Shown: piece after piece, positions 9,758 through 62,856 of the stretch | Layout: every line of letters starts with the position of its first letter | How positions within the stretch are numbered: position 1 is the stretch's first letter | Made by a program: the position numbers and the translations under genes | The notes under the pieces: generated by a model | The model's input: only the letters and a program-made list of their open reading frames with translations | The model's database searches: none | What the model was told of the DNA's origin: nothing | NCBI GenBank assembly: GCA_965204895.1 | Contig: OZ242025.1 | Coordinates: 833,621-897,620, forward strand | Length of the DNA: 64,000 nt | Reading direction: 5' to 3' | DNA from: Dehalococcoidia bacterium | Lineage (GTDB): Bacteria; Chloroflexota; Dehalococcoidia; Lucifugimonadales; UBA2985

Positions 9758-11107
9758 ATGTTTGCCTTCCGAGTAGCAATCTATTTGCAGCGAACCGTTC
9801 ACCGGCTAGCGTGGATAGGTCTGTCGTGCTTGGTGGCTTCAGCATTGCTGTCAGCATGTGATGACGATCTCGTACCCACTACAACGCCTGTGCCTATTTC
9901 CATATCGCCCACTCACATCCTGGAGTGTTCTAACGGTGTCAGCGTGCCGGACCCTCATAACAACCCGGATTTAGTCAATGACTGTGCAATCCTGCTTGAG
10001 GCTCGGGATATTCTGAGCACTACCTCCACTTACAACACTTACGACCTGAACTGGAGCCCCGATATTCCCATCTCGCAGTGGAAAGGCGTTACCGTCGCTG
10101 CAGGCCGTGTCACAGGCATCGATTTGGAATCCTACGAAGTGTGGTGGGGAGATGTGGGGTTTGAGGTCACTCTTGGAGGGAGAATGCCGCCGACACTTGG
10201 CGGTCTCACCGGTCTGCGTTTTCTGAGATTCCGATGGACCGGATTGGAAGGGCCGATACCCGCTTCTCTCGGCAACCTCAAGAATCTGGAGGCTTTAGAT
10301 CTATGCGGCAACGAGTTTTCGGGGGAGATACCGACTTCGCTGGCGCGCCTCCGAAATCTCAAGGAACTAAGTCTATGCAGCGACCAGTTCAGTGAGATAC
10401 CACCTTCCATAGGAAGCCTCACCAACCTGGAGTCACTTGCTTTAAGCGGCACCGGGTTCACGGGCGAGATACCCTCTTCCTTAAGCAAACTCACGAACTT
10501 GAGAGCGCTCAGCTTGTTTTCCACCGGATTCACAGGCGAGATACCTTCTTTCCTGAGCGACCTCACCAAACTGAGGTATCTCAGCCTAACTCGTAACCCG
10601 CTTACAGGCGAGATACCTTCTTTCCTGGGCGACCTCACCGAACTGAGACATCTCGGCTTGGAGGACAACCAGTTCACGGGAGAGATACCCGCTTCCCTGG
10701 GCAACCTCACCAAACTGGAGCATCTCGATCTAGCGCAAAACCAGCTTACGGGAGAGATACCCGCTTCCCTAGGCGACCTCACCAAACTGGAGTGGCTCGA
10801 ACTAGAGCGCAACCAGCTTACGGGAGAGATACCTGCTTCCCTGGGCGACCTCACCAAACTGAGGTATCTCGATCTATCGCGCAACCAGCTTGCGGGACAG
10901 ATACCCGCTTCCCTGGGGAATGCCGGCAGCCTCTGGCATCTACGATTGAACTACAACCAGCTTACAGGACAGATACCCCATTCCCTAACTGAACTCTATA
11001 ACCTGGAACGGATGGCACTATACCCGAACCCACTGAGCGGGTGCGTGCCTGAATTTGAGAGCGTAAGGGATCACGATGCCATGCATTTTCACCTACCGGA
11101 CTGTTGA
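9758..11107 (+). CDS. Leucine-rich-repeat lipoprotein with plant-type 24-residue LRRs
   Basis: Lipobox LLSAC. About 12 repeats of LxxLxxLxLxxNxLTGEIPxSLGxLTK. The N-terminal cap LLEARDIL...LNWS...ISQWKGVTV..GRVTGIDL resembles LRRNT_2. Confidence 0.8.
   Translation: MFAFRVAIYLQRTVHRLAWIGLSCLVASALLSACDDDLVPTTTPVPISISPTHILECSNGVSVPDPHNNPDLVNDCAILLEARDILSTTSTYNTYDLNWSPDIPISQWKGVTVAAGRVTGIDLESYEVWWGDVGFEVTLGGRMPPTLGGLTGLRFLRFRWTGLEGPIPASLGNLKNLEALDLCGNEFSGEIPTSLARLRNLKELSLCSDQFSEIPPSIGSLTNLESLALSGTGFTGEIPSSLSKLTNLRALSLFSTGFTGEIPSFLSDLTKLRYLSLTRNPLTGEIPSFLGDLTELRHLGLEDNQFTGEIPASLGNLTKLEHLDLAQNQLTGEIPASLGDLTKLEWLELERNQLTGEIPASLGDLTKLRYLDLSRNQLAGQIPASLGNAGSLWHLRLNYNQLTGQIPHSLTELYNLERMALYPNPLSGCVPEFESVRDHDAMHFHLPDC
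10190..11063 (+). repeat. Tandem 72-bp (24-codon) coding repeats of the LRR protein
   Basis: Units such as aaccagcttacgggagagatacccgcttccctgggcgacctcaccaaactg recur with near nucleotide identity, most clearly at 10680-10960. Confidence 0.75.
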
Positions 11108-13722: not shown

Positions 13723-14949
13723 TTGGCCAAATCCGTATTCTATTTCGCCCTTGGCATAGCGCTGGCCCTGGTCACCCTGGTTGTCATAGCCCTGGTGGTG
13801 ACCAACTTCACCGGCGACGACCCGGCGCCCGCACCGGCGCCTACGGCCACGCCCTCGGCTGCGGGGCCTGTCGGACCCGACACGCAGCCCGCGCCCACCG
13901 ATGCCCCTACCGCTACCGCGACTGCGCCGGACGCGCCCACGGCCCAACCGACCCCAACCTCAACGCCCTCGGTGAACATGGACCGCGACCTGCAAATCGT
14001 GACGCTCCTTCGCAAGGACGCCATACCGGCCATCCTGGAGCCGGAGTTCCTCACCATTGCCGAGGCCGACGGGCAGATGACGGAGGACGAGCTGGTCTTG
14101 GGCATATCCATCGAGGGGGACTCCCGGGCCTACTCCGTCAACATGCTCAGCAGGCACGAGATAGCCAACGACGTGGTGGGAGGCGTGCCCGTCGCCGTCA
14201 CCTGGTGACCCCTCTGCTTCTCGGGCATAGTTTATGCCCGTGAGTTCGGCGAAGAGACGCTGACCTTTGGCGTGTCCGGCAAGCTGGTGATGAACGCCCT
14301 GGTCATGTACGACCACCAGACGGACTCCCTGTGGAGCCACTTCACGGGAGACGCCATTGAGGGCGATTACCTGGGCACAAGGCTGGAGCTTGTTCCGTCA
14401 ACCCACACCACCTGGGGCAGGTGGAAGGAGCTGCACCCTGACACCCTGGCGCTGGACAAGGGCGGGCGATACAGCTACGACAACTACGCGTCCTACTACC
14501 GGAGGTCCGACGCCGGCGTCATTGGCGAGACCGTTATCGACGACCGTCTGGCCACCAAGGACCTGGTTGTGGGCCTGGTGATCGGCGGCGAAGCCAAGGC
14601 CTATGCCTTCGACGACCTGAGCGAGCAGCCCGTGGTCAATGACGCCGTGGGAGGCAGCAACGTGGTGGTCGTTTTCGACGCCGAATCCGAGACGGGCAAC
14701 GTCTTCAGCCGTGACGTGGACGGCCGCACCCTGGAGTTCCAACTGCTTGAGGACGACGGCTCAGGCGACCTGCTGATGGAGGACCTGGAGACGGGCACCC
14801 GGTGGCTGCTCCTCACGGGAGAGGCCGTTGACGGCCCACTTCAGGGGGCGCGGCTGGCGCAGGCGCCCTCCAACTACTCCTTCTGGTTTGCGTGGAAGGA
14901 CTGGCATCCCTCCACGGGCCTCTTCGTACGGGACGGCGCGGCCTCCTGA
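13723..14949 (+). CDS. DUF3179-family protein, predicted selenoprotein (UGA 14206-14208 read as Sec in a U-P-L-C motif); TM anchor plus PT/A-rich linker
   Basis: ORFs 13723..14208 and 14272..14949 are in one frame. Read-through gives GGVPVAVTW-U-PLCFSGIVYAREFGEETLTFGVSGKLVMNALVMYDHQTDSLWSHFTG, a continuous DUF3179 domain. A hairpin lies 13 nt after the UGA. Confidence 0.75.
14206..14240 (+). promoter_or_regulatory. In-frame UGA plus candidate bacterial SECIS hairpin
   Basis: UGA at 14206-14208. Stem cgggcata (14222-14229) pairs with tatgcccg (14233-14240), loop GUU. The loop G at 14230 is 22 nt after the A of the UGA. Confidence 0.65.
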
Positions 14950-15034
14950 CCAGCGCGCTTGAACCCCTCAACATTACGCCCTTTTCTGTTATAGCCTCTT
15001 AATATACTTAAGGATTGCGAAAGGTGGCGCCGTT

Positions 15035-16288
15035 ATGATTTGGCGAATAAGACCTTGGGAGAGGTATATCCGTATGACAATGGTGAAGGCTCGTGGACTT
15101 GCCGTTGGCCTGACGATGACGTCGGGGCTGGCGCTGCTCGCCGCCGGATGCAGCGAGCCAGTCGTCACGCCCACGCCGACGTCCGAGCCAACCTCCACGC
15201 CCCAGGCCAGCGCCACTCCCGCACCCGTGCCCACCGCCACCCCATTCCCCCTGTCGGACACCGGCAGGGTTACCAGGGATGAGCTTGTCGCCAGGCTGCA
15301 GACCGCCGTAGTGAGGGACGGCATCCCGGCCATTCTGGACCCACACTTCGTGCCGCCGGAGTCGGTGCCGCCGGAGTTCAGGGACACGGAGCTTGTCATG
15401 GGGATGTCGCTGAACGGCCAGAGCAAGGCCTACCCGATAGCTATACTCAGCCATCACGAGATAGTCAACGACGTGGTGGGAGGTGTGCCCGTCGCCGTCA
15501 CGTGGTGACCGCTGTGTTACTCGGGCATAGTTTATGCCCGCCAGTTCGGGGAGGAGACGCTGACCTTTGGAGTGTCCGGCAAGCTGAGCATGAACGCTAT
15601 GATAATGTACGACCACCAGACGGACTCCCTGTGGGCCCACTTCACGGGTGAGGCCATCACGGGCGACTACGAGGGCACACAGCTGGAGGTGCTGCCCGTT
15701 ATGCAGACCACTTGGGGCCACTGGCGGGAGCTTCACCCAGACTCCCAGGTGCTGGCGTGGAGGATGCCCACCAATGAGGACCCCACCGGCGCGCTGGGCT
15801 TCACCTACGACCCGTACCTGGGCTACTACGCCAGCGGCTGGGTCGGCTACGGGCGCACCCGGGAGGACAACCGCCTGGAGCAGAAGGACTTTGTGCTGGG
15901 CCTGGTGCTGAACGACGAGTCCATGGCCTACCCCTTCAACAACCTTGTGGACCACCCCGTCGTCAACGACTCTGTGGGAGGTAGGGATGTGGTCATCACC
16001 TACGAGCCGGTGTCGGATACGGGGGGAGTCTTCTCTCGCAAGGTGGACGGCCGCCCCCTCACCTTCAACATCCTGGAGGAGGACGGCGCAGACGGCCTGA
16101 TTATGGTCGACGAGGAGACCGGCAGCCGGTGGCTGCTCCTGGCGGCGGAGGCCGTGGAGGGCCCGCTCAAGGGAACCAGGCTTGAGCAGCTTCCCGCGTT
16201 CTACTCCTACTGGTTCGCATGGGCTGACTGGAATCCCACTACCGGCCTGTTCCTCCGGGAGGGCGTCCAAGAGGGCGTCTCTCCGTAG
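15035..16288 (+). CDS. DUF3179-family lipoprotein, predicted selenoprotein (UGA 15506-15508 read as Sec, U-P-L-C)
   Basis: ORFs 15035..15508 and 15572..16288 are in one frame. Read-through gives GGVPVAVTW-U-PLCYSGIVYARQFGEETLTFGVSGKLSMN. Lipobox LLAAGC and a PT-rich linker. The true start may be an internal Met (15074 or 15080). Confidence 0.75.
15506..15540 (+). promoter_or_regulatory. In-frame UGA plus candidate bacterial SECIS hairpin
   Basis: UGA at 15506-15508. Identical hairpin cgggcata-gtt-tatgcccg at 15522-15540, with the loop G at 15530 (22 nt after the UGA). The 13-nt spacer differs from the paralogue at synonymous sites. Confidence 0.65.
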
Positions 16289-19015: not shown

Positions 19016-19024
19016 TGGTATAAT
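19016..19024 (+). promoter_or_regulatory. Extended -10 promoter element TGGTATAAT
   Basis: tggtataat ends 8 nt before the ATG at 19033, so the methyltransferase mRNA would be leaderless or nearly so. Confidence 0.4.
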
Positions 19025-19032
19025 TGCGAGGT

Positions 19033-20475
19033 ATGAACGCACACAATCCAGACGCTCCAGAACAGGCGCACCCGGCAGTCTGTCGCTATTTGCTTGATAG
19101 CGAGGCGCTCTCGCCAGATAACGCTCAGAATACAGATATTCCGGAAACAGCGGAGCAGCATATTATTCGCGGCGATGCTCTAGATGTTCTAGCGAGATTA
19201 CCCGCGGAGTCTGTTGACCTAGTACACACTAGTCCGCCCTACAACATTAACAAGCCATATGAATCTGACCTAACTGACAGGGCTTCCGCCAATGTGTACA
19301 AGGAATTCCTCTCTGCGGCCATCAACGAACTCAAGCGGGTGATCAGACCTGGTGGATCTATTTTCTGGCAAACCGGGTATACTCAAAGCGAGCGGAACGA
19401 TTCTGAGATAGTCCCCATTGACTTCCTTAGCTATGAGTTTTTCCGCTCTGAACCTAACCCCTTTATTCTCTGGGACAGAATAATTTGGCGTTACTGGGGC
19501 GGCCACGCATTCACCAAGAAATTCACCAACAAGCACGAAACCGTTCTTTGGTTTGTCAAAGCTGGCAAAGAGCCGACCTTTCTCGTGGATGCTGTCAGAG
19601 AGAAATCTAAAGAGTACGATAAACGTAACAATCTTTGGGGGCGTAACCCTGGTAACGTCTGGGAGGTAGATCGCGTAGCCTATGGCTCTACCGAACAGAC
19701 ATCTCATATAGCTGTCTTTCCAGAAGAAATCACCGAAAGAATCGTTCGTGCATGCTCTAACCCTTCGGATTTGGTGTTGGACCCGTTTTCGGGGAGTGGC
19801 ACCGTGGCGAAAGTAGCTCATGGGCTGGGGCGAAGATGGATTGGCATAGAAATATCCCCCCTGTACGCCGATGAGTCTTGTGTGCGAGTTGGATACCAGC
19901 AACCTTCCGAGCATGAGTCCTTGGCGTCGGAACTGATTAAAAGATTGGCCTTTAAGGACAAGCCCGGAAAATTGAAGCTCTCAGAGGTTTTTGACAGGGT
20001 TTCGCTTTGGGCTAGAAGTGTTTCGGTTGACGAGCTACAAAGTGTACTCGACTTGGATATCAACAGAGTTTTCAGTGATGGGAGTGGTAGAAATCAGGTC
20101 AAGCGCGAAGTCTGGATGAAGTATGACAAAATCATGGATCAGCCCGCCAAAGGAACCTCTGTAGCTCTTGCGGACGAGCTGCTCTCCAACTGTTACAAGC
20201 TCAGGCAGCAATTCAACGGTGTTACCCGCTTCAGGTCAGCGTTGACAGCATTGACGACTTGTTTAGACAAGTTTATAGATTACAGTTCTGCACTTCCTTA
20301 CATCTCTAGACTTGCTAGACAGGAGCCCTCCTCTTTTGAGTTGCACGAGACCGAGCTTACGTTCCTTTCGCCAAGCCGCAAAGTAGGCTCTAGCGCTCTT
20401 GATCTTCAAGCCGACGATGTCCAAGACAAAGGCGGCATTGAAGAAACTAGCTCACAAGGAAGGCTGCCTCTGTGA
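19033..20475 (+). CDS. Site-specific DNA methyltransferase, beta class (N4-cytosine or N6-adenine), with ~190-aa C-terminal extension
   Basis: Motif IV is TSPPY (DLVHTSPPYNINKPYE), which precedes motif I DPFSGSGT, as in the N6_N4_Mtase architecture. The ORF track begins at TTG 19024. The region is lower in GC. Confidence 0.85.
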   Translation: MNAHNPDAPEQAHPAVCRYLLDSEALSPDNAQNTDIPETAEQHIIRGDALDVLARLPAESVDLVHTSPPYNINKPYESDLTDRASANVYKEFLSAAINELKRVIRPGGSIFWQTGYTQSERNDSEIVPIDFLSYEFFRSEPNPFILWDRIIWRYWGGHAFTKKFTNKHETVLWFVKAGKEPTFLVDAVREKSKEYDKRNNLWGRNPGNVWEVDRVAYGSTEQTSHIAVFPEEITERIVRACSNPSDLVLDPFSGSGTVAKVAHGLGRRWIGIEISPLYADESCVRVGYQQPSEHESLASELIKRLAFKDKPGKLKLSEVFDRVSLWARSVSVDELQSVLDLDINRVFSDGSGRNQVKREVWMKYDKIMDQPAKGTSVALADELLSNCYKLRQQFNGVTRFRSALTALTTCLDKFIDYSSALPYISRLARQEPSSFELHETELTFLSPSRKVGSSALDLQADDVQDKGGIEETSSQGRLPL

Positions 20476-21446
20476 ATCAGTGGTTGTCTCCTACCCAAGA
20501 AACCCTAAAGTCTGTCATAGAGACTTCGTCAGGGAGGCTTCTGCTTTGTAGCCCTTTCATTTCCAGGTCGGGACTAGATGTAGTCGCTGACTCGTTACCA
20601 GGCGCCGTCTCGCAAATTGAAATATGGACCAAGCTTGATACCCACGACTGGTTAACCGGCGCCTCTGATTCTGAGGGCCTATTGGACTTTATTCAACAGG
20701 TTAAACCCCAAGTATCTGACGTTTCGCTCCGCCAATCTAGCAATCTACATGCCAAGATCATCGTATCGGATGGCCCGCAGGGGCTTGCAGGGTCCTCCAA
20801 CCTGACTGCTGGCGGCTTCGGACGCAACTTGGAGGTTACGCGCCTAACGTCAGATGGTGAATTGGATGAACTCAGGAGTTTCGTTGAAGCCATGAGGCCT
20901 AAACTGACACCTGTGACATTTGAGCAGTTCAATGACTTTGTTGCCCAATGCGTAGCCAAAATCGACTCTCAAGAGGCTTTGCTAGAGCTTATTCGAGACG
21001 AGATGCCGCCCCCAGACTTGGGGCCTCTACCCCTTACAAGCTACAGGGAATTCCTAACTTTCCTTGATTCTCAGGCCAGCCCATTGGCAAGTGATATCTT
21101 GAGGATAGCCAGAAATTTGGATCGCAACAATAACACCGGCAAGGTCAAACAAGCATTCTTTGGGGTTCAAAGATTCCTGCAAGAGTACCCAACATATAGG
21201 AACCGTGTAGCGTCTCTTCCAGACGATCAATGGTTTGATGTATCTGGAGACTCAATGTTTGGAGATTGGCGCCGATTCCTGATTGACTACAGCTTAGAAG
21301 TCAACTCGGCTTACGGATATTCAATTCCTACGCTCATCCGCTACCTTACGCTAACCTCAGGCGGCTCACTAGTAGGCGGTGGTGGTGGAGACAACGAACT
21401 TAAGCGAGTGTGGCCGTTTGTGGGCAGACTTATAGTGTCCCAATAA
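20472..21446 (+). CDS. PLD-family (single HKD motif) nuclease, candidate restriction endonuclease partner
   Basis: HKD motif NLHAKIIVSDGPQGLAGSSNLT (HxK(x)4D...GSxN). The GTG start overlaps the methyltransferase stop (GTGA). The ~170-aa C-terminal domain is uncharacterised. Confidence 0.7.
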   Translation: MNQWLSPTQETLKSVIETSSGRLLLCSPFISRSGLDVVADSLPGAVSQIEIWTKLDTHDWLTGASDSEGLLDFIQQVKPQVSDVSLRQSSNLHAKIIVSDGPQGLAGSSNLTAGGFGRNLEVTRLTSDGELDELRSFVEAMRPKLTPVTFEQFNDFVAQCVAKIDSQEALLELIRDEMPPPDLGPLPLTSYREFLTFLDSQASPLASDILRIARNLDRNNNTGKVKQAFFGVQRFLQEYPTYRNRVASLPDDQWFDVSGDSMFGDWRRFLIDYSLEVNSAYGYSIPTLIRYLTLTSGGSLVGGGGGDNELKRVWPFVGRLIVSQ

Positions 21447-36434: not shown

Positions 36435-36476
36435 GCGGACTGATGCGATCCTGCATTGAAGTATGCAGTGCAATCA

Positions 36477-36485
36477 TGGTATAAT
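36477..36485 (+). promoter_or_regulatory. Extended -10 promoter element TGGTATAAT
   Basis: tggtataat lies 32 nt upstream of the ATG at 36517, with GGAGG before that ATG. Confidence 0.45.
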
Positions 36486-36516
36486 AGCGCATGAAAGCAT
36501 TGATGGAGGCGCTATC

Positions 36517-36759
36517 ATGGCAAGCATAACAGTTCGCAACCTGGATGACGGGCTGAAGCGGCGGCTGCGTGTTAGGGCCGCGGAGAACGGCCGGTCCATG
36601 GAGCAGGAGGCCCGGGAGATACTGAAGCAGGCTTTGGAGGAGGAGACGCCCATAAAGGATCTCGGAACCGCTATCCACGAGCTCTTCAAACCGTTCGGCG
36701 GCGTGGAACTGGAGATACCACCAAGGGACCCAATGCGCGAGCCTCCCAAGTTCGACTGA
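36517..36759 (+). CDS. FitA/StbC-like ribbon-helix-helix antitoxin
   Basis: MASITVRNLDDGLKRRLRVRAAENGRSMEQEAREILK, a typical Arc/MetJ-type VapB/FitA N-terminus. Confidence 0.8.
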   Translation: MASITVRNLDDGLKRRLRVRAAENGRSMEQEAREILKQALEEETPIKDLGTAIHELFKPFGGVELEIPPRDPMREPPKFD

Positions 36760-36769
36760 GCTTGCGGCG

Positions 36770-37189
36770 ATGATTATTCTTGACACCAATGTGGTCTCAG
36801 AACTCATGCGGGAGAGGCCAGGCTCAGGAGTCCGCTCGTGGCTGACCGCTCAGCCAGCCAGCATTCTCTTCACTACCGCTATCACTGAAGCTGAGATACT
36901 GTCTGGCATAGCCATTCTGCCCGATGGAGAGCGACGGCGCGGGCTTGCCGCCGCGGCTCAGCGCGCATTTGGCGTACTGTTTGGTGAACGTGTTCTCTCT
37001 TTTGACAGCAAGGCTGCCCAAGCCTACGCGGTGATAGCCGCCGCGCGCCGCGCCGCCGGGCATCCAATCAGCCACGCCGACTGCCAGATAGCGGCCATAG
37101 CACGCTCCACAGGAGCATCGGTCGCGACCAGGGACGCGGACGGCTTTCAGGGGTGTGGGGTAGACGTCATTAACCCCTGGCTGGACTGA
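36770..37189 (+). CDS. vapC: PIN-domain toxin VapC (FitB-like)
   Basis: MIILDTNVVSELMR (first acidic residue), with conserved E (ITEAEI) and D (DCQIAAIA) positions. 139 aa. Confidence 0.85.
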   Translation: MIILDTNVVSELMRERPGSGVRSWLTAQPASILFTTAITEAEILSGIAILPDGERRRGLAAAAQRAFGVLFGERVLSFDSKAAQAYAVIAAARRAAGHPISHADCQIAAIARSTGASVATRDADGFQGCGVDVINPWLD

Positions 37190-37277: not shown

Positions 37278-37352
37278 GCGGAAGTGGCTCAGTGGTAGAG
37301 CATCTCCTTGCCAAGGAGAGGGTCGTGGGTTCGAATCCCATCTTCCGCTCCA
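37278..37352 (+). tRNA. tRNA-Gly (anticodon GCC), CCA encoded
   Basis: GCGGAAG-TG-GCTC-AGTGGTA-GAGC, anticodon stem TCTCC/GGAGA with loop TTGCCAA, T-loop TTCGAAT, then CTTCCGC-T-CCA. Confidence 0.9.
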
Positions 37353-37363
37353 TTCTTTTTTGA

Positions 37364-37451
37364 GCCGAAGTGGCGGAATGGTAGACGCGGCGGTCTCAAA
37401 AACCGTTGGGGCGCAATCCCCGTGCCGGTTCGAATCCGGCCTTCGGCACCA
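37364..37451 (+). tRNA. tRNA-Leu (anticodon CAA), CCA encoded
   Basis: GCCGAAG-TG-GCGGAATGGTAGACGC, anticodon loop CTCAAAA, long variable arm, T-arm CCGGT-TCGAATC-CGG, then CTTCGGC-A-CCA. Confidence 0.9.
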
Positions 37452-37930: not shown

Positions 37931-38269
37931 ATGATGGAGTACAAGGGGTACATTGTCAAAGTTGAGTACGACGATTCCGTTGGCCTTCTGCACGGGAGCG
38001 TGATCAACAGCGGGAGCTACCCCGTTGCAACCTGTGAGGCGGCTGACGTGGAGACGCTCAGGAAGGAGTTCCGAATTTCCATAGACGAATACCTGGCCTG
38101 GTGCGCGGAGGACGGCGTTGAGCCCAAGCGGCCCTTCTCCGGCAAGCTGAACCTGCGCCTGGGGCCGGACCTCCACGCGCGTGTGGCCGCGCTCGCGGCC
38201 CAGAGTGGTATGAGCATCAACAGCTGGATCAAGGAAGCGCTGGAACGGGAGACGTCCAAACTGAGATGA
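37931..38269 (+). CDS. HicB-family antitoxin with a C-terminal ribbon-helix-helix
   Basis: YKGYIVKVEYDDSVGLLHGSVIN...TLRKEFRISIDEYLAWCAEDG...GKLNLRLGPDLHARVAALAAQSGMSINSWIKEAL. Confidence 0.75.
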   Translation: MMEYKGYIVKVEYDDSVGLLHGSVINSGSYPVATCEAADVETLRKEFRISIDEYLAWCAEDGVEPKRPFSGKLNLRLGPDLHARVAALAAQSGMSINSWIKEALERETSKLR

Positions 38270-39231
38270 ACGCCAAAAAGCCCGAGTTACAAGACTTCAG
38301 GATAACACCCGAAGAATATGACCTATATGTGGGCAAGAGGGGTTTGTACCCTTCAGACCGAGCATTTGGGTATTCACTAGCAGTCATCTTTGTGGTCGCG
38401 TTCTCAAGCCTTTATGTCGGTACCCGCGATTTGGGCATTGCGTTCTGGCTTGGCTTATCGATAACCGCCGCGAGCTTAATGCTAGTTGTGCCGATAGTTG
38501 GATCCTTGGTCAAATTAGCCATTACGCATTACCAGAGAGACCGCCTATTGGGTAGCCCCATCGTCTCTAGGATCGAACTATATGAAGAGGCATTGGCAGC
38601 TTACCAGAACATTATAGAAGACGCGAAGAGAGCAAGGCGGGAGGCAGAGAGGCAAAGATGGGAGGCGGAGAGGGCGCGGGAGAGGGCCGAGTGGGCCCGC
38701 CAGAAGGCTGAGAGAGAACGGCTCAGGAAACTAAGCGAATACTGGACATCTCTAAGCGGCGTCGCATTTGAGCGGGAGTTGGCAAACCTATATAGACGCC
38801 TCGGCTATCTTGTAGAAACCACCCCTGGCTCTGGAGATCAAGGAATTGACCTCATTGTCAAAAAAGATGGTCTTACGACCATAGTTCAGTGCAAGGCTCA
38901 CAAATCCCCTGTAGGACCTGCAATCGCCAGAGAGCTGTACGGAAGCCTGGTTGCTTACGGTGCTGACCTTGCAATCCTGGCCTCGACTGGAGGGTTCACA
39001 CAGGGTGTAAAGGATTTTGCGCGGGGGAAACCAATAGCCCTCATCTCTGCTTATGAACTGGCCGCTTTGGGAGAGAGGGGCGAAGCACTACCAGAGCAAA
39101 GTATCCCACCCATCTGCCCCGCGCAGGGATGTGGAAAAACGATGGTCACACGGACTGGCAGATACGGCACATTTTGGGGATGCCCGACCTTCCCCAAATG
39201 CAAAGGAACCAGGGAATACCGGGGCCAGTGA
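38266..39231 (+). CDS. Membrane-anchored Mrr-type (Mrr_cat) restriction-endonuclease-fold protein with a C-terminal topoisomerase-type C4 zinc ribbon
   Basis: Two N-terminal TM helices and a charged coiled coil (RREAERQRWEAERARERAEWARQKAERERL). Mrr_cat core FERELANLYRRLGYLVETTPGSGDQGIDLIV...IVQCKAHKSPVG. C-terminus CPAQGCGKTMV...FWGCPTFPKCKGT. ATGA overlap with the upstream gene. Confidence 0.75.
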   Translation: MNAKKPELQDFRITPEEYDLYVGKRGLYPSDRAFGYSLAVIFVVAFSSLYVGTRDLGIAFWLGLSITAASLMLVVPIVGSLVKLAITHYQRDRLLGSPIVSRIELYEEALAAYQNIIEDAKRARREAERQRWEAERARERAEWARQKAERERLRKLSEYWTSLSGVAFERELANLYRRLGYLVETTPGSGDQGIDLIVKKDGLTTIVQCKAHKSPVGPAIARELYGSLVAYGADLAILASTGGFTQGVKDFARGKPIALISAYELAALGERGEALPEQSIPPICPAQGCGKTMVTRTGRYGTFWGCPTFPKCKGTREYRGQ

Positions 39232-51897: not shown

Positions 51898-52338
51898 ATG
51901 GCTACAACACGAAGAGCAGAGGCGGTGTGGAACGGAGACCTGATATCCGGGAACGGAGCGGTGAGCGCGGCCAGCAGCGGCGCGTTCACGGACCTGCCGG
52001 TGACGTGGGTGTCCAGGACCGAGGCGCCGGGCGGCAAGACCAGCCCGGAGGAGCTGGTGGCCTCCGCGCACGCCGCCTGCTACTGCATGGCGCTGTCCTA
52101 CGGGCTGGCCGGAGCGGGCACGCCTCCCACCAAGCTGGAGGTGAGCGCGACGGTGACCTTTGAGCTGGGCGACGCGGGGCCCAGGGTCGCCTCCAGCGCC
52201 CTGACCGTGCGTGGAGAGGTGCCAGGAATCGATGCCGCTGCCTTCAAGGAGGCTGCGGAGTCGGCCAAGGACGGCTGCCCCATATCCCAGGCGCTCCAGG
52301 GCAACGTGGCACTCAGCGTAGAGGCGACGCTGGCGTAG
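51898..52338 (+). CDS. osmC: OsmC family peroxiredoxin
   Basis: TSPEELVASAHAACYCMAL and KDGCPISQAL, the two conserved Cys contexts of OsmC. 146 aa. Confidence 0.85.
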   Translation: MATTRRAEAVWNGDLISGNGAVSAASSGAFTDLPVTWVSRTEAPGGKTSPEELVASAHAACYCMALSYGLAGAGTPPTKLEVSATVTFELGDAGPRVASSALTVRGEVPGIDAAAFKEAAESAKDGCPISQALQGNVALSVEATLA

Positions 52339-60196: not shown

Positions 60197-61549
60197 TCAG
60201 TTGCGCAGCTGGGCCAGGATTGAGGAAACGGAGGTCCTGTGGCTAGTGCTGCCCACGAACTTCCACTTGATGATCCCCTCCGCGTCGATAACGAAAGTGG
60301 ACGGAGTGGCGCGTCCTCCGTCGCTGGGGTTGTGTACCTCGTATAACCTGGTCACTTCCGCTGAGGGGTCGTAGAGCACCGGGAAGGGGATACCCACCTG
60401 CCGCGCAATGTCCTCAGCACCGCTCAGGTTGTCCACGCTTATGGCTACCACCTCAGCGTTCAGAGCCTGTATGTCGTTGTATCTACTTGTCAGCTCTACG
60501 AGCTGAGCGCGGCAGTAAGTTCACCAGAATGCCCGGTAGAAGACCACCACCACCATCTTGTCGCCACGGTAAGACTCCAGGGAAACGTCCGACTCTGAGA
60601 TGGACGGCAGCGTGAAGAGTGGAGCCAGATTGCCTACGTCAGTACCTACCGGTATTGGGACTTCCGTGGGCACAGGTGTTGCCGTAGGCGCGGGCGTCGC
60701 GGTCGGCTGTGGAGTGACCGTTGGCACTGGAGTAGCAGTTGGCAGGATAGTTGCTGTCGGCACAGGAGTAGCGGTGGGCTCCGGGAGCGCCGTGGGCCAA
60801 GAGGTAGCGGTCGGCTCTACGGTCGTCAAGCTGGACAGATGCTCCTTGATGGTGGAAAGGGCGGGCCGATCGCCCGCGGACGTGCCTACGTACTTCCACC
60901 TGATAACGCCCTCCGCGTCGATGATGAACATTGACGGGGTTGCAAGGCCGTCGTCCAGGAGGTCGTAGACTGTGTACGACCGGGTCACCTCTGTTGAGGC
61001 GTCGTACAGGACGGGGAAGGTGACCCGCCACTCGCCCACGACGGTGAGGGCGTCCTGGAGGTCGTTCACGCTTACGGCCAGGATTTCGGCGTTGAGCGCC
61101 TTGATGTCCTCGTGGGCCTCTGTCAGCTCAACGAGCTGATCATGGCAGAACCCTCAGAAGGAGCCTCTGTAGTAGACCAGCACCACGCTCTTGTCGCCCC
61201 GGTAGGACTCCAGGGACACGTCCGTCCCGGAGGCGGAGGGCAGGGTGAAGCCGGGGGCCATGTCCCCGACCTCCGCGCTGGGCGGCGCTTCCGGCTCAGG
61301 GGTTGGGGTGGGAGGCTGGGTGGCGGTAGGCGCGGGCGTCTCCCGGGGCTCCGGCGTGGGTGTTGGGGCCGCCGTTGGCTGGGGCACAGCCGTTGCGGTG
61401 GGCGCCGGTGTGGGGCTTGGGGCCGTGGTCGCGGTCGGCTCCTCGGAGCCGCACGCCACCGCCGTCGCTATCGAGATGATGCCTATGGCGAGCCAAAGAA
61501 CTGCTTTGCGCATACGTCTATGATACCCTATAGCGTCCGTCCGCCTCAA
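60197..61549 (-). CDS. Tandem two-domain AhpC/TSA (Prx-like/redoxin) lipoprotein, predicted selenoprotein with two Sec codons (U-G-F-C and U-T-Y-C)
   Basis: ORFs 61154..61549, 60521..61069 and 60197..60451 are one frame. Read-through gives VVLVYYRGSF-U-GFCHDQLVELT and VVVVFYRAFW-U-TYCRAQLVELT. Lipobox TAVACG, with PT linkers before each domain. The probable start is ATG 61513. Confidence 0.75.
60490..60523 (-). promoter_or_regulatory. In-frame UGA (60521-60523) plus candidate SECIS hairpin, second redoxin domain
   Basis: On the minus strand: UGA, a 14-nt spacer, then tcagctc-gta-gagctga (60506..60490). The loop G at 60499 is 22 nt after the A of the UGA. Confidence 0.65.
61123..61156 (-). 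promoter_or_regulatory. In-frame UGA (61154-61156) plus candidate SECIS hairpin, first redoxin domain
   Basis: On the minus strand: UGA, a 14-nt spacer, then tcagctc-gtt-gagctga (61139..61123). The loop G at 61132 is 22 nt after the A of the UGA. Confidence 0.65.
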
Positions 61550-61564: not shown

Positions 61565-62856
61565 GGTAGTGTAACTTAGAGTGTGTAAATTGATGAGAAG
61601 GGGCGTATCCTGAATCAGGGTTTAGTGCAAGGCCTGAAAGGAGGACACGCCCATGGTGCAGGTCAGGGACCTGACAGAATTGACGATAGCTGATAGGTGG
61701 AGGGAGGTCAAGGGAGAGGAGGAGTGGTGGGGAGACATCAAGGAACAGGCGCTGAGAGGTGTGAAGAGGTTGTTGGAGGGGGCGATGGAGGGAGAACTGA
61801 TAGAGCAGTTGAACGCTGGGAGGTACAGGCGAACAGAGTCTCGGCGGGGTTACCGCAACGGCTACCGGTATCGCAGCCTGCTAACGGAGTTGGGGATGGT
61901 GGAGCGTCTAAGGGTGCCCCGTGACCGGGACGGAGCCTACCGGACGGAGGTGTTGCCTAGATACCAGAGGCGACAGGAGAGGGTGAATAATGCAGTACGG
62001 GCGATGTTCCTGACAGGGGTGAGCACTCGGAAGGTGCAGGAGTTGGTAGGACCCATGCTGGGAGCGTCGGTCAGCGCCCAGACTGTCTCACGAATTGCTC
62101 GCAGCCTGGACGGAGAGGTGCGTCGTTACCAGAGCCGTACTCTGACAGACTCCTACCTCTACTTGCTGCTGGACGGCATCGTCCTCAGGGTGAAGGAGGC
62201 TAACAGGGTGGTCAGGCGCCTGGTATTGTGTGCCTATGGCATTACACCGGCCGGGTTCAGGGAGATGATATCATTCCGCCAGGCGAACTCTGAGAGTGAA
62301 GCTGCATGGGAGGCCTTCCTCAGAGACCTATACGACAGGGGGCTTAATGGCAAGTCTCTCAACATGATCAGCACCGATGGTTGCCCTGGGCTTCATAGCG
62401 CTTTGGGCACAGTATATCCCTATGTCACCAGACAGAGGTGCTGGGCTCACAAGATGCGCAACGTAGCCTCCAAGCTACCCCGTAAGCTTCAGGACACTTG
62501 CCTCACTGAGGCCAAGACCATCTACCAGGCTCACACCCGAAGGGAGGCTGTACTCCGCTTCCGCCGGTGGGCAGCGCGCTGGCGCAGCACTGCACCCAAA
62601 GCTGTAAAGTGCATAGAGGACGACCTAGACGAACTCTTGCCCTTCCTCGACTGTCCTAAGGCCCATTGGAAGAAGATACGGACTACCAACGCTATCGAGA
62701 GAGCTTTCAGGGAAGTACGACGTAGAACAAGGCCTATGAGCTGCTTCCAGAATACTGCCAGTGTAGACAGAATCATCTTCGGCGTAATCAGTCACTTGAA
62801 TAACAATTGGAAAGATAATCCCCTTCCGCATTTTACACACAACTCTTGACACTACC
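61565..62856 (+). mobile_element. IS256-family insertion sequence (1292 bp), intact
   Basis: Terminal imperfect inverted repeats GGTAGTGTaActtAGaGTGTGTAAAtTGatGAGAAGGGG (left) and, reverse-complemented on the right, GGTAGTGTcAagAGttGTGTGTAAAaTGcGGAAGGGG. Single mutator-type transposase ORF and 8-bp TSD. Confidence 0.9.
61653..62849 (+). CDS. IS256-family (mutator-type) transposase
   Basis: RRGYRNGYRYRSLLTELGMVERLRVPRDRDGAYRTEVLPRYQRRQE, YLYLLLDGI, ISTDGCPGL, QRCWAHKMRNV and IRTTNAIERAFREVRRR (DDE region). Confidence 0.95.
   Translation: MVQVRDLTELTIADRWREVKGEEEWWGDIKEQALRGVKRLLEGAMEGELIEQLNAGRYRRTESRRGYRNGYRYRSLLTELGMVERLRVPRDRDGAYRTEVLPRYQRRQERVNNAVRAMFLTGVSTRKVQELVGPMLGASVSAQTVSRIARSLDGEVRRYQSRTLTDSYLYLLLDGIVLRVKEANRVVRRLVLCAYGITPAGFREMISFRQANSESEAAWEAFLRDLYDRGLNGKSLNMISTDGCPGLHSALGTVYPYVTRQRCWAHKMRNVASKLPRKLQDTCLTEAKTIYQAHTRREAVLRFRRWAARWRSTAPKAVKCIEDDLDELLPFLDCPKAHWKKIRTTNAIERAFREVRRRTRPMSCFQNTASVDRIIFGVISHLNNNWKDNPLPHFTHNS

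What the first reader, a model, noticed from the sequence alone, without database searches (positions are those of the whole stretch)
14206..14240. All four in-frame UGAs share one geometry: a 7-8 bp hairpin with a G-U-N triloop whose G lies exactly 22 nt after the UGA
These positions were counted directly from the sequence. Site 1: UGA at 14206-08, stem at 14222-29/14233-40, loop GUU, G at 14230. Site 2: UGA at 15506-08, identical hairpin at 15522-40, G at 15530. Site 3 (minus strand): UGA at 61156-54, stem tcagctc/gagctga at 61139-61123, loop GUU, G at 61132. Site 4 (minus strand): UGA at 60523-21, stem at 60506-60490, loop GUA, G at 60499. In every case the distance from the A of the UGA to the loop G is 22 nt. 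An apical-loop G (GU) within the 16-37 nt range downstream of the UGA is the recognised hallmark of bacterial SECIS elements bound by SelB. Two unrelated protein families sharing the same spacing and loop is hard to explain by coding constraints alone.
Basis: seen in the sequence. Interest (0 to 1): 0.7.

Follow-up and report, generated by a model that had tools for sequence, protein, structure and literature searches.

The report
Selenocysteine-insertion hairpins after four in-frame UGAs

Summary
All coordinates check out. Each of the four TGAs is followed by a perfect 8/8/7/7-bp hairpin with a GUU/GUU/GUU/GUA triloop, and the loop G lies 22 nt after the A of the TGA. None of the other ~1,930 TGA trinucleotides in the window has this geometry.

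The UGAs interrupt single Pfam domains at the first Cys of a CxxC motif. Two are in tandem DUF3179 genes. Two are in one gene (not two) that encodes a tandem AhpC/TSA (Prx-like, UxxC) protein with two Sec residues.

In 166 related loci, TGA forms carry the hairpin in 92-93% of cases and Cys forms in 12-24%. The stems show compensatory changes: 5 of 8 and 4 of 7 pairs, with 0 of 500 shuffles reaching the observed score. Synonymous sites inside the hairpin are about half as variable as flanking ones. Prx-like Sec forms have GG/GU at the loop in 34/36 cases, Cys forms in 0/33.

All four sites meet the published bacterial SECIS model. Both families are already listed as selenoproteins.

Not tested: whether selA/selB/selC/selD exist in this genome (none lies in the window), and any experiment. 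One recently duplicated Cys paralog still carries the hairpin.

Verdict: supported, a new member of a known kind, low novelty.

The parts
13723..14949 (+). DUF3179 selenoprotein gene 1, read through the UGA at 14206-08 (motif TW-U-PLC). It ends in an ordinary TGA with no hairpin.
   Evidence: Pfam PF11376, E=3.3e-86, one stretch spanning the UGA. ORFs on both sides are in the same frame.
14206..14208 (+). Sec-UGA, site 1
   Evidence: aligns with Cys in Cys-form homologs and with TGA in 86 related genes.
14222..14240 (+). SECIS hairpin 1: 8-bp stem CGGGCAUA/UAUGCCCG, loop GUU, loop G at 14230 (+22)
   Evidence: -11.0 kcal/mol. Covariation in orthologs. Synonymous resampling 89/20000.
15035..16288 (+). 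DUF3179 selenoprotein gene 2, a tandem paralog, read through the UGA at 15506-08
   Evidence: Pfam PF11376, E=2.3e-93.
15506..15508 (+). Sec-UGA, site 2
15522..15540 (+). SECIS hairpin 2. Its 19 nt are identical to hairpin 1 although the flanking synonymous sites differ.
   Evidence: resampling 110/20000.
60197..61513 (-). One gene for a two-domain Prx-like (AhpC/TSA, UxxC) protein with two Sec residues. It has a lipoprotein-type signal peptide and Pro/Thr-rich linkers, and ends in an ordinary TGA with no hairpin. The ATG at 61513 is taken as the start by comparison with P0180; the ORF opens at TTG 61549.
   Evidence: Continuous frame. Pfam AhpC-TSA E=2.3e-63 with two stretches. Homolog fragments span domain 1, the linker and the second UGA. 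The same architecture occurs in L162-L166.
61154..61156 (-). Sec-UGA, site 3 (domain 1, F-U-GFC)
61123..61139 (-). SECIS hairpin 3: 7-bp stem UCAGCUC/GAGCUGA, loop GUU, G at 61132 (+22)
   Evidence: -8.6 kcal/mol; covariation; resampling 209/20000.
60521..60523 (-). Sec-UGA, site 4 (domain 2, W-U-TYC)
60490..60506 (-). SECIS hairpin 4: same 7-bp stem, loop GUA, G at 60499 (+22)
   Evidence: Resampling 1462/20000, so this site alone is weak evidence.

Best explanation
The four hairpins are bacterial selenocysteine insertion sequence (SECIS) elements embedded in the coding sequence.

Proposed mechanism: as the ribosome reaches each in-frame UGA, the 17-19-nt stem-loop that starts 13-14 nt downstream is still folded. 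Its apical G-U is bound by the C-terminal domain of the elongation factor SelB, which carries Sec-tRNA(Sec). This tethers the ternary complex at the A site, so the UGA is decoded as selenocysteine instead of being read by release factor 2.

Products: two DUF3179 proteins with a U-P-L-C motif, and one two-domain Prx-like thiol:disulfide oxidoreductase-type protein with a UxxC motif in each domain. Each UGA in the two-domain gene has its own SECIS, as the bacterial mechanism requires.

What is shown here: the sequence geometry, its specificity within the window, conservation with covariation, its absence from most Cys homologs, and suppression of synonymous variation.

What is inferred from the established E. 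coli/Moorella mechanism: SelB binding, Sec insertion, and the presence of selA/selB/selC/selD in this genome.
For: 1. Geometry and specificity.

2. The UGAs split single Pfam domains and align with the first Cys of CxxC.

3. UGA is a normal stop in this genome. 24 predicted genes end in TGA and none has such a hairpin. These include DUF3179 gene 1 and the Prx-like gene themselves.

4. DUF3179 family:
- Across 81 sources (80 loci in GTDB genomes plus the window), 86 genes have TGA at this codon and 8 have Cys.
- A hairpin of at least 6 bp occurs in 93% of 76 unique Sec forms and in 12% of Cys forms (Mann-Whitney p=8e-4).
- 90.1% of cells are paired, against 26-47% when partners are slid.
- 5 of 8 pairs show double changes, and 0 of 500 shuffles reach the observed values.
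- Several double changes pair an amino-acid change on one side with a synonymous change on the other: Ile>Val with UAU>UAC, Gly>Ser with GCC>GCU, Ala>Ser with GGC>GGA.

5. Prx-like family:
- 42 TGA and 37 Cys forms were found in metagenome loci.
- The hairpin occurs in 92% of Sec forms and 24% of Cys forms (p=3e-6).
- 92.5% of cells are paired and 4 of 7 pairs show double changes. The covariation score is 0.324 against 0.148 in shuffles (0/500).
- L133 and L151 encode an unrelated peptide (RRRFGDL) yet have a 7-bp hairpin with a GUU loop.
- GG/GU occupies +22/+23 in 34/36 Sec forms and 0/33 Cys forms. This matches the G[G|U] loop rule of the bSECIS model.

6. RNAalifold recovers the same helices without guidance.

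7. Third-codon-position entropy is 0.75 and 0.87 bits inside the hairpins, against 1.43 and 1.51 bits in the flanks. The stems use rare codons: UAU is 12% of Tyr, GUU 11% of Val and CGU 5% of Arg in this window.

8. Synonymous resampling gives P=0.0045, 0.0055 and 0.010 for sites 1-3.

9. Both families are catalogued selenoproteins (PMC9312934, PMC13188914, PMC2398784). Sec decoding is documented in Chloroflexi (PMC1794560, PMC5389517).
Against: - No selA, selB, selD or tRNA-Sec lies in the 64-kb window or in about 0.96 Mb of related loci. The rest of the genome could not be searched.
- There is no experimental evidence.
- Part of the Prx hairpin comes free with the peptide QLxEL, because CAG-CUC/GAG-CUG is self-complementary. 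Site 4 reaches its stem in 7.3% of synonymous resamples. One Cys form, L160, has a 7-9-bp hairpin with an AGU loop.
- One Cys DUF3179 paralog (P0004, L081) carries the same hairpin.
- Fold z-scores of the 55-nt stretches are only -1.0 to -1.9.
- The sequence sets are phylogenetically related, so the shuffle controls overstate significance.
Confidence: 0.9

Rival explanations
1. The hairpins are a by-product of conserved peptides (SGIVYAR, QLVEL) and have no RNA-level function. The UGAs would be read through, or would terminate, by some other route.
For: - QLxEL is intrinsically palindromic at the codon level.
- Site 4 is reached by 7.3% of synonymous resamples.
- The Cys-form L160 forms a comparable hairpin.
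- The Cys paralog P0004 has the identical DUF3179 hairpin.
- The loop G-U of the DUF3179 sites is a Val codon that Cys forms also conserve.
Against: - Sites 1-3 are reached by at most 1% of resamples.
- Cys forms with near-identical peptides (TGIVYDR, SGIVFDR) use codons that do not pair.
- Synonymous sites are selectively frozen inside the stems.
- Double compensatory changes are frequent.
- An unrelated peptide still carries a GUU hairpin in L133 and L151.
- P0004 is a recent duplicate, 85-90% nucleotide-identical.
- Loop GG/GU occurs in 34/36 Sec forms and 0/33 Cys forms.
Confidence: 0.04
2. The hairpin is a generic roadblock that slows the ribosome or hinders release factor 2 at the UGA. 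It would promote read-through without specific recognition by SelB.
For: The elements are very small (7-8 bp plus a triloop) and lack the bulged U of the E. coli fdhF element (own knowledge). No SelB gene could be checked.
Against: - A roadblock would not require G[G|U] at the first loop positions, yet this is nearly invariant in Sec forms and absent from Prx-like Cys forms.
- The position of the loop G is fixed at +22, or +18 in L133 and L151.
- The recoded position is always the redox Cys of CxxC, as expected for Sec.
Confidence: 0.04
3. The TGAs are nonsense mutations, sequencing errors or pseudogenes, or UGA is reassigned to a standard amino acid in this organism.
For: Gene callers split all three genes at the UGAs. 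Database entries are fragments of 220-245 aa, or of 104-250 aa.
Against: - The same codon is TGA in 86 DUF3179 genes and 42 Prx-like genes from many genomes and metagenomes, with conserved protein sequence on both sides.
- 24 genes in the window end in TGA, so UGA is a stop here.
Confidence: 0.01

Closest known systems
Consensus bacterial SECIS (bSECIS) model of Zhang and Gladyshev, as summarised in PMC13188914
   Same: [quoted passage not shown] All are met by the four sites.
   Different: Nothing essential differs. These elements sit at the compact end of the range: a perfect 7-8-bp stem, a triloop, and no bulge or internal loop.
E. coli fdhF/fdnG SECIS, the experimentally characterised SelB-binding element (own knowledge, not checked here)
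   Same: A stem-loop immediately 3' of the UGA with a G-U in the apical loop that SelB contacts. One element serves each UGA.
   Different: There is no sequence similarity and no bulged U. The stem is shorter, and the loop is a triloop rather than a tetraloop. No Rfam family matches.
DUF3179 domain-containing selenoprotein family (PF11376, UxxC/T). It is listed in PMC9312934 and PMC13188914, which cite the Olavius symbiont study PMC1976440.
   Same: Full-length Pfam match with Sec at the first position of the U-P-L-C motif. Deltaproteobacterial, Nitrospinota and Binatia members appear among the related loci.
   Different: Here the genes are in Dehalococcoidia (Chloroflexota) as two tandem Sec paralogs. 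In the 80 best-matching genome loci, Sec forms far outnumber Cys forms (86 vs 8). That sample was selected by similarity to a Sec form.
Prx-like thiol:disulfide oxidoreductase, 'Prx-like 1' (PF00578, UxxC/UxxU), one of the most abundant marine selenoprotein families (PMC2398784, PMC13188914)
   Same: AhpC/TSA fold, UxxC motif with Sec at the first position, and a SECIS directly downstream.
   Different: Two complete UxxC domains are fused in one secreted or lipoprotein-like chain. This gives two Sec residues about 210 codons apart, each with its own SECIS. The catalogued '1~2 Sec' sits beside the motifs UxxC and UxxU, and I read the '2' as the UxxU form. I found no description of the tandem-domain form in the papers read.

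Membership tests
Bacterial SECIS element (bSECIS model, PMC13188914) | Apical loop of 3-9 nt on an upper stem of 4-16 bp | tested here: met
   3-nt loops on stems of 8, 8, 7 and 7 bp.
Bacterial SECIS element (bSECIS model, PMC13188914) | At least one G in the first two loop positions, usually followed by G or U | tested here: met
   Loops are GUU, GUU, GUU and GUA. GG/GU occurs at this position in 34/36 Prx-like and 73/73 DUF3179 Sec forms.
Bacterial SECIS element (bSECIS model, PMC13188914) | [quoted passage not shown] | tested here: met
   21 nt of spacer, with the loop G as the 22nd nt after the A, at all four sites.
Bacterial SECIS element (bSECIS model, PMC13188914) | Minimum free energy at or below -7.5 kcal/mol | tested here: met
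   Hairpin alone: -11.0, -11.0, -8.6 and -8.6 kcal/mol. 55-nt folds: -11.6 to -19.2.
Bacterial SECIS element (bSECIS model, PMC13188914) | Lies directly after an in-frame UGA that aligns with Cys in homologs | tested here: met
Bacterial SECIS element (bSECIS model, PMC13188914) | Structure conserved in Sec-form orthologs, with compensatory changes, and dispensable in Cys forms | tested here: met
   One exception is a recent Cys duplicate that keeps the hairpin.
Bacterial SECIS element (bSECIS model, PMC13188914) | Bound by SelB and required for Sec insertion | not testable with these tools
   Needs binding or reporter experiments.
Bacterial SECIS element (bSECIS model, PMC13188914) | Genome encodes selA, selB, selD and tRNA-Sec | not testable with these tools
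   None is present in the 64-kb window or the fetched loci. Sec decoding is documented in the phylum (PMC1794560, PMC5389517).
DUF3179 selenoprotein family (PF11376, UxxC/T) | Full-length PF11376 domain with Sec at the first position of UxxC | tested here: met
   E=3.3e-86 and 2.3e-93, motif TW-U-PLC.
Prx-like thiol:disulfide oxidoreductase selenoprotein (PF00578, UxxC) | AhpC/TSA domain with a UxxC motif | tested here: met
   PF00578 E=2.3e-63 with two stretches, motifs F-U-GFC and W-U-TYC.

The most novel reading that the evidence does not exclude
Three readings beyond 'ordinary SECIS' are not excluded.
1. The tandem two-domain, two-Sec, apparently exported Prx-like protein is an undescribed architecture, conserved in a Dehalococcoidia clade. 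A duplicated in-ORF SECIS lets one bacterial mRNA insert two well-separated Sec residues.
2. The SECIS visibly dictates protein sequence. It selects Gly/Val at position U+8 in Prx-like proteins, and Ala rather than Asp at U+10 in DUF3179.
3. The compact 7-8-bp/triloop element with its G fixed at +22 in two unrelated families reflects a lineage-specific SelB spacing optimum.
Probability: 0.35. Interest if true: 0.35.

Novelty: new member of a known kind. Interest (0 to 1): 0.22.

Why it matters
- Annotation: all three genes are split into fragments by gene callers in this window and in many database entries. Recognising the SECIS elements restores full-length selenoproteins in Dehalococcoidia MAGs.
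- The comparative sets give a clean example of an RNA structure constraining both codon choice and amino-acid choice inside a coding region.
- They also show a Sec-to-Cys conversion caught with its SECIS still intact.
- None of this changes current understanding of Sec decoding.

Tried and rejected
- Rfam, at gathering and at permissive thresholds, returned only tRNAs and noise. No SECIS family matched.
- I looked for tRNA-Sec with ARAGORN in the window and in 166 loci and found none.
- I annotated about 50 window ORFs with Pfam to look for SelA/SelB/SelD and found none. The only translational GTPase is LepA.
- An AIRS-family gene next to the Prx-like gene in L165 looked like a possible SelD but is ThiL.
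- Exact-protein look-ups meant to identify the source contig failed. Cluster look-up shows only that near-identical fragments sit on a 2,443,739-bp NCBI/ENA contig.
- I searched for further in-frame UGAs with a GC3-based test and a hairpin-based test. The remaining candidates are antisense frames of other genes or adjacent genes that share a frame.
- Codon reassignment and pseudogene explanations were rejected.
- I considered the lower helix that RNAfold adds around sites 1-3 but did not test it for conservation.

Full report
**Observation**

All four sites are exactly as described.
- On the plus strand, TGA 14206-08 and TGA 15506-08 are each followed by the same 19-nt hairpin, CGGGCAUA-GUU-UAUGCCCG, at 14222-40 and 15522-40.
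- On the minus strand, TGA 61156-54 and TGA 60523-21 are followed by UCAGCUC-GUU-GAGCUGA (61139-23) and UCAGCUC-GUA-GAGCUGA (60506-490).
- The loop G is the 22nd nucleotide after the A of the TGA in every case.

A scan of all 1,934 TGA trinucleotides on both strands finds this geometry only at these four. The geometry tested was a Watson-Crick stem of at least 6 bp and a triloop starting with G at +22. With looser rules (any perfect stem of at least 7 bp, a 3-9-nt loop with G in its first two positions, 16-37 nt downstream), 20 of 1,933 TGAs qualify, and four of them are these sites. RNAfold places the hairpins in the minimum-energy fold of each 55-nt stretch. The z-scores against shuffles are modest, -1.0 to -1.9, as expected for short hairpins in 61% G+C sequence.

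**Gene context and two corrections**

Sites 1 and 2 interrupt two tandem genes, 13723-14949 and 15035-16288. When read through, each gives a full-length DUF3179 domain (PF11376, E=3e-86 and 2e-93) with the motif TW-U-PLC.

Sites 3 and 4 are not in two genes. They lie in one continuous frame, 61549/61513 to 60197 on the minus strand. This frame encodes a lipoprotein-type signal, Pro/Thr-rich linkers and two AhpC/TSA domains, each with a UxxC motif (F-U-GFC and W-U-TYC). So the window has three selenoprotein genes and four Sec codons.

Because sites 1/2 are paralogs and sites 3/4 are duplicated domains, the 'shared geometry' rests on two independent families.

UGA is an ordinary stop codon here. 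24 predicted genes end in TGA, including DUF3179 gene 1 and the Prx-like gene itself, and none of these stops is followed by a qualifying hairpin. Two independent screens found no other credible in-frame UGA in the window.

**DUF3179 relatives**

A protein search gives a bimodal picture. Fragments of 220-245 aa begin just after the UGA position; these are Sec forms cut by gene callers. Full-length Cys forms are 370-400 aa.

Eighty loci from GTDB species genomes were fetched. They are mostly Dehalococcoidia, with some other Chloroflexota, Nitrospinota, Binatia and Deltaproteobacteria. With the window included, 86 genes have TGA at this codon and 8 have TGT/TGC.

| Measure (DUF3179) | Result |
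|---|---|
| Hairpin of at least 6 bp at the same place, 76 unique Sec forms | 93% |
| Same, 8 Cys forms | 12% (p=8e-4) |
| Cells forming standard pairs, 73 sequences | 90.1% |
| Same, with partners slid by 1-3 columns | 26-47% |
| Pairs with changes on both sides | 5 of 8 |
| Shuffles reaching the observed values | 0 of 500 |

Several double changes couple an amino-acid change on one strand to a synonymous change on the other:
- AUA>GUA (Ile>Val) with UAU>UAC
- GGC>AGC (Gly>Ser) with GCC>GCU
- GCC>UCC (Ala>Ser) with GGC>GGA/GGG

This is what an RNA constraint predicts and a peptide constraint does not.

Cys forms with almost the same peptide (TGIVYDR, SGIVFDR) use ACC/UCC, AUC, GUC, UAC/UUC and GAC, which do not pair.

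**Prx-like relatives**

Database fragments run from the C-terminal part of domain 1 through the linker to '...FYRAFW', that is, to the second UGA. Loci L162-L166 show both UGAs in one frame, each with its hairpin. The two-Sec tandem architecture is therefore conserved.

Eighty metagenome loci gave 42 TGA forms and 37 Cys forms.

| Measure (Prx-like) | Result |
|---|---|
| Hairpin of at least 6 bp, Sec forms | 92% |
| Same, Cys forms | 24% (p=3e-6) |
| Cells forming standard pairs | 92.5% |
| Same, with partners slid | 18-50% |
| Pairs with changes on both sides | 4 of 7 |
| Covariation score, observed vs shuffled | 0.324 vs 0.148 (0/500) |

Examples of the double changes are CAGCUC/GAGCUG, CAACUC/GAGUUG, CAGAUC/GAUCUG and CAACUG/CAGUUG.

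Two loci, L133 and L151, encode a quite different peptide (RRRFGDL). They still carry a 7-bp hairpin with a GUU loop, with the G at +18.

The dinucleotide at +22/+23 is GG or GU in 34 of 36 Sec forms and in 0 of 33 Cys forms. This is the G[G|U] rule of the published model.

RNAalifold recovers both helices unaided.

**Coding constraint as an explanation**

I resampled synonymous codons with the window's own usage. A stem as good as the observed one arose in 0.45%, 0.55%, 1.0% and 7.3% of trials for sites 1-4.

The DUF3179 stem uses UAU (12% of Tyr codons here), GUU (11% of Val) and CGU (5% of Arg).

Across orthologs, third-codon-position entropy is 0.75 and 0.87 bits inside the hairpins, against 1.43 and 1.51 bits in the flanks.

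The peptide QLxEL is partly self-complementary at the codon level. This explains the weaker result for site 4 and the occasional hairpin in a Cys form (L160).

The Cys-form P0004 (L081, TGT-CTG-CTG-TGC) has the hairpin. It sits directly beside a Sec paralog and is 85-90% identical to it at the nucleotide level across the aligned windows from about 200 nt upstream of the Sec/Cys codon to 460 nt downstream. I read it as a recent Sec-to-Cys conversion that still carries a relic SECIS, not as evidence against function.

**Mechanism**

The best explanation is the standard bacterial one. SelB carrying Sec-tRNA(Sec) binds the apical G-U of a hairpin held about 21 nt downstream of the UGA and delivers Sec to the A site in competition with RF2.

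Shown here:
- anatomy;
- specificity within the window;
- conservation with covariation;
- contrast between Sec and Cys forms;
- frozen synonymous sites.

Inferred:
- SelB binding;
- actual Sec insertion;
- presence of the sel genes.

The window and about 0.96 Mb of related loci contain no selA/selB/selD or tRNA-Sec. An AIRS-family neighbour in L165 is ThiL, not SelD. I could not scan the rest of the genome. Sec decoding, and an unusual 8/4 tRNA-Sec, are documented in Chloroflexi (PMC1794560, PMC5389517).

**Comparison with what is known**

The four elements meet every criterion of the consensus bSECIS model quoted in PMC13188914: loop 3-9 nt, stem 4-16 bp, G in the first two loop positions, spacing 16-37 nt, and MFE at or below -7.5 kcal/mol.

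[quoted passage not shown] Prx-like 1 is among the most abundant marine selenoprotein families (PMC2398784).

The fusion of two UxxC Prx-like domains into one two-Sec chain is not described in the papers I read. It is a minor architectural variant.

**Verdict**

- The finding is a new member of a known kind.
- Its practical value is in correcting fragmented annotations. It also serves as a tidy illustration of SECIS-imposed constraints on coding sequence.
- It would not surprise a specialist.

Noticed in passing
window 60197-61513 (-): Sites 3 and 4 belong to one gene. It encodes a lipoprotein-type signal peptide (MRKAVLWLAIGIISIATAVAC...), Pro/Thr-rich linkers, and two AhpC/TSA UxxC domains with two Sec residues. 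The same two-Sec architecture is conserved in L162-L166.
   Followed up: yes
L081 6001-7209 and 7224-8510: A Cys-form DUF3179 gene (TGT at the Sec position, CLLC motif) keeps the SECIS-like hairpin. It lies next to a Sec paralog that is 85-90% identical at the nucleotide level. This looks like a recent Sec-to-Cys conversion with a relic SECIS.
   Followed up: yes
L133 and L151 (TGA at 1987 and 2112): These Prx-like Sec forms have a different downstream peptide (U-PNC-RRRFGDL). Their 7-bp hairpin GUCGCCG-GUU-CGGCGAC is unrelated in sequence, and its loop G is at +18 rather than +22.
   Followed up: partly
L098, L100, L105-L109, L114, L117, L135: A metagenomic Prx-like subfamily has the motif C-G-U-G-P-D. 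Sec is present but the UxxC cysteine is replaced by Asp, and a Cys lies two residues upstream. The SECIS-type hairpin is retained.
   Followed up: no
window 13723-16288 and 60197-61513: All three selenoprotein genes start with a membrane-anchor or lipoprotein-like N-terminus followed by a Pro/Thr-rich linker. This suggests extracytoplasmic selenoproteins. It is inferred from sequence only.
   Followed up: no
window 19024-21446; 36463-37189; 38266-39231; 61653-62849: Mobile or defence-type genes are present:
- a DNA methylase (N6_N4_Mtase) plus an unknown ORF, with GC3 about 0.52 against about 0.85 elsewhere;
- a FitA/PIN toxin-antitoxin pair beside tRNA-Gly and tRNA-Leu (37278-37451);
- an Mrr-type restriction endonuclease;
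- a Mutator-family transposase directly upstream of the Prx-like gene.
   Followed up: partly
window 9758-11107 (+): A leucine-rich-repeat protein gene has atypically low GC3 (0.60), so it may have been acquired horizontally.
   Followed up: no
window 51898-52338 (+): An OsmC-like protein with an uninterrupted ORF. OsmC-like proteins are also a catalogued selenoprotein family (UxxT). This copy has no in-frame UGA, so it is not a Sec form.
   Followed up: no
window 14206-14260, 15506-15560, 61102-61156: RNAfold adds a weaker lower helix around the core hairpins at sites 1-3, pairing sequence near the UxxC codons with sequence 3' of the hairpin. I did not test whether it is conserved.
   Followed up: no
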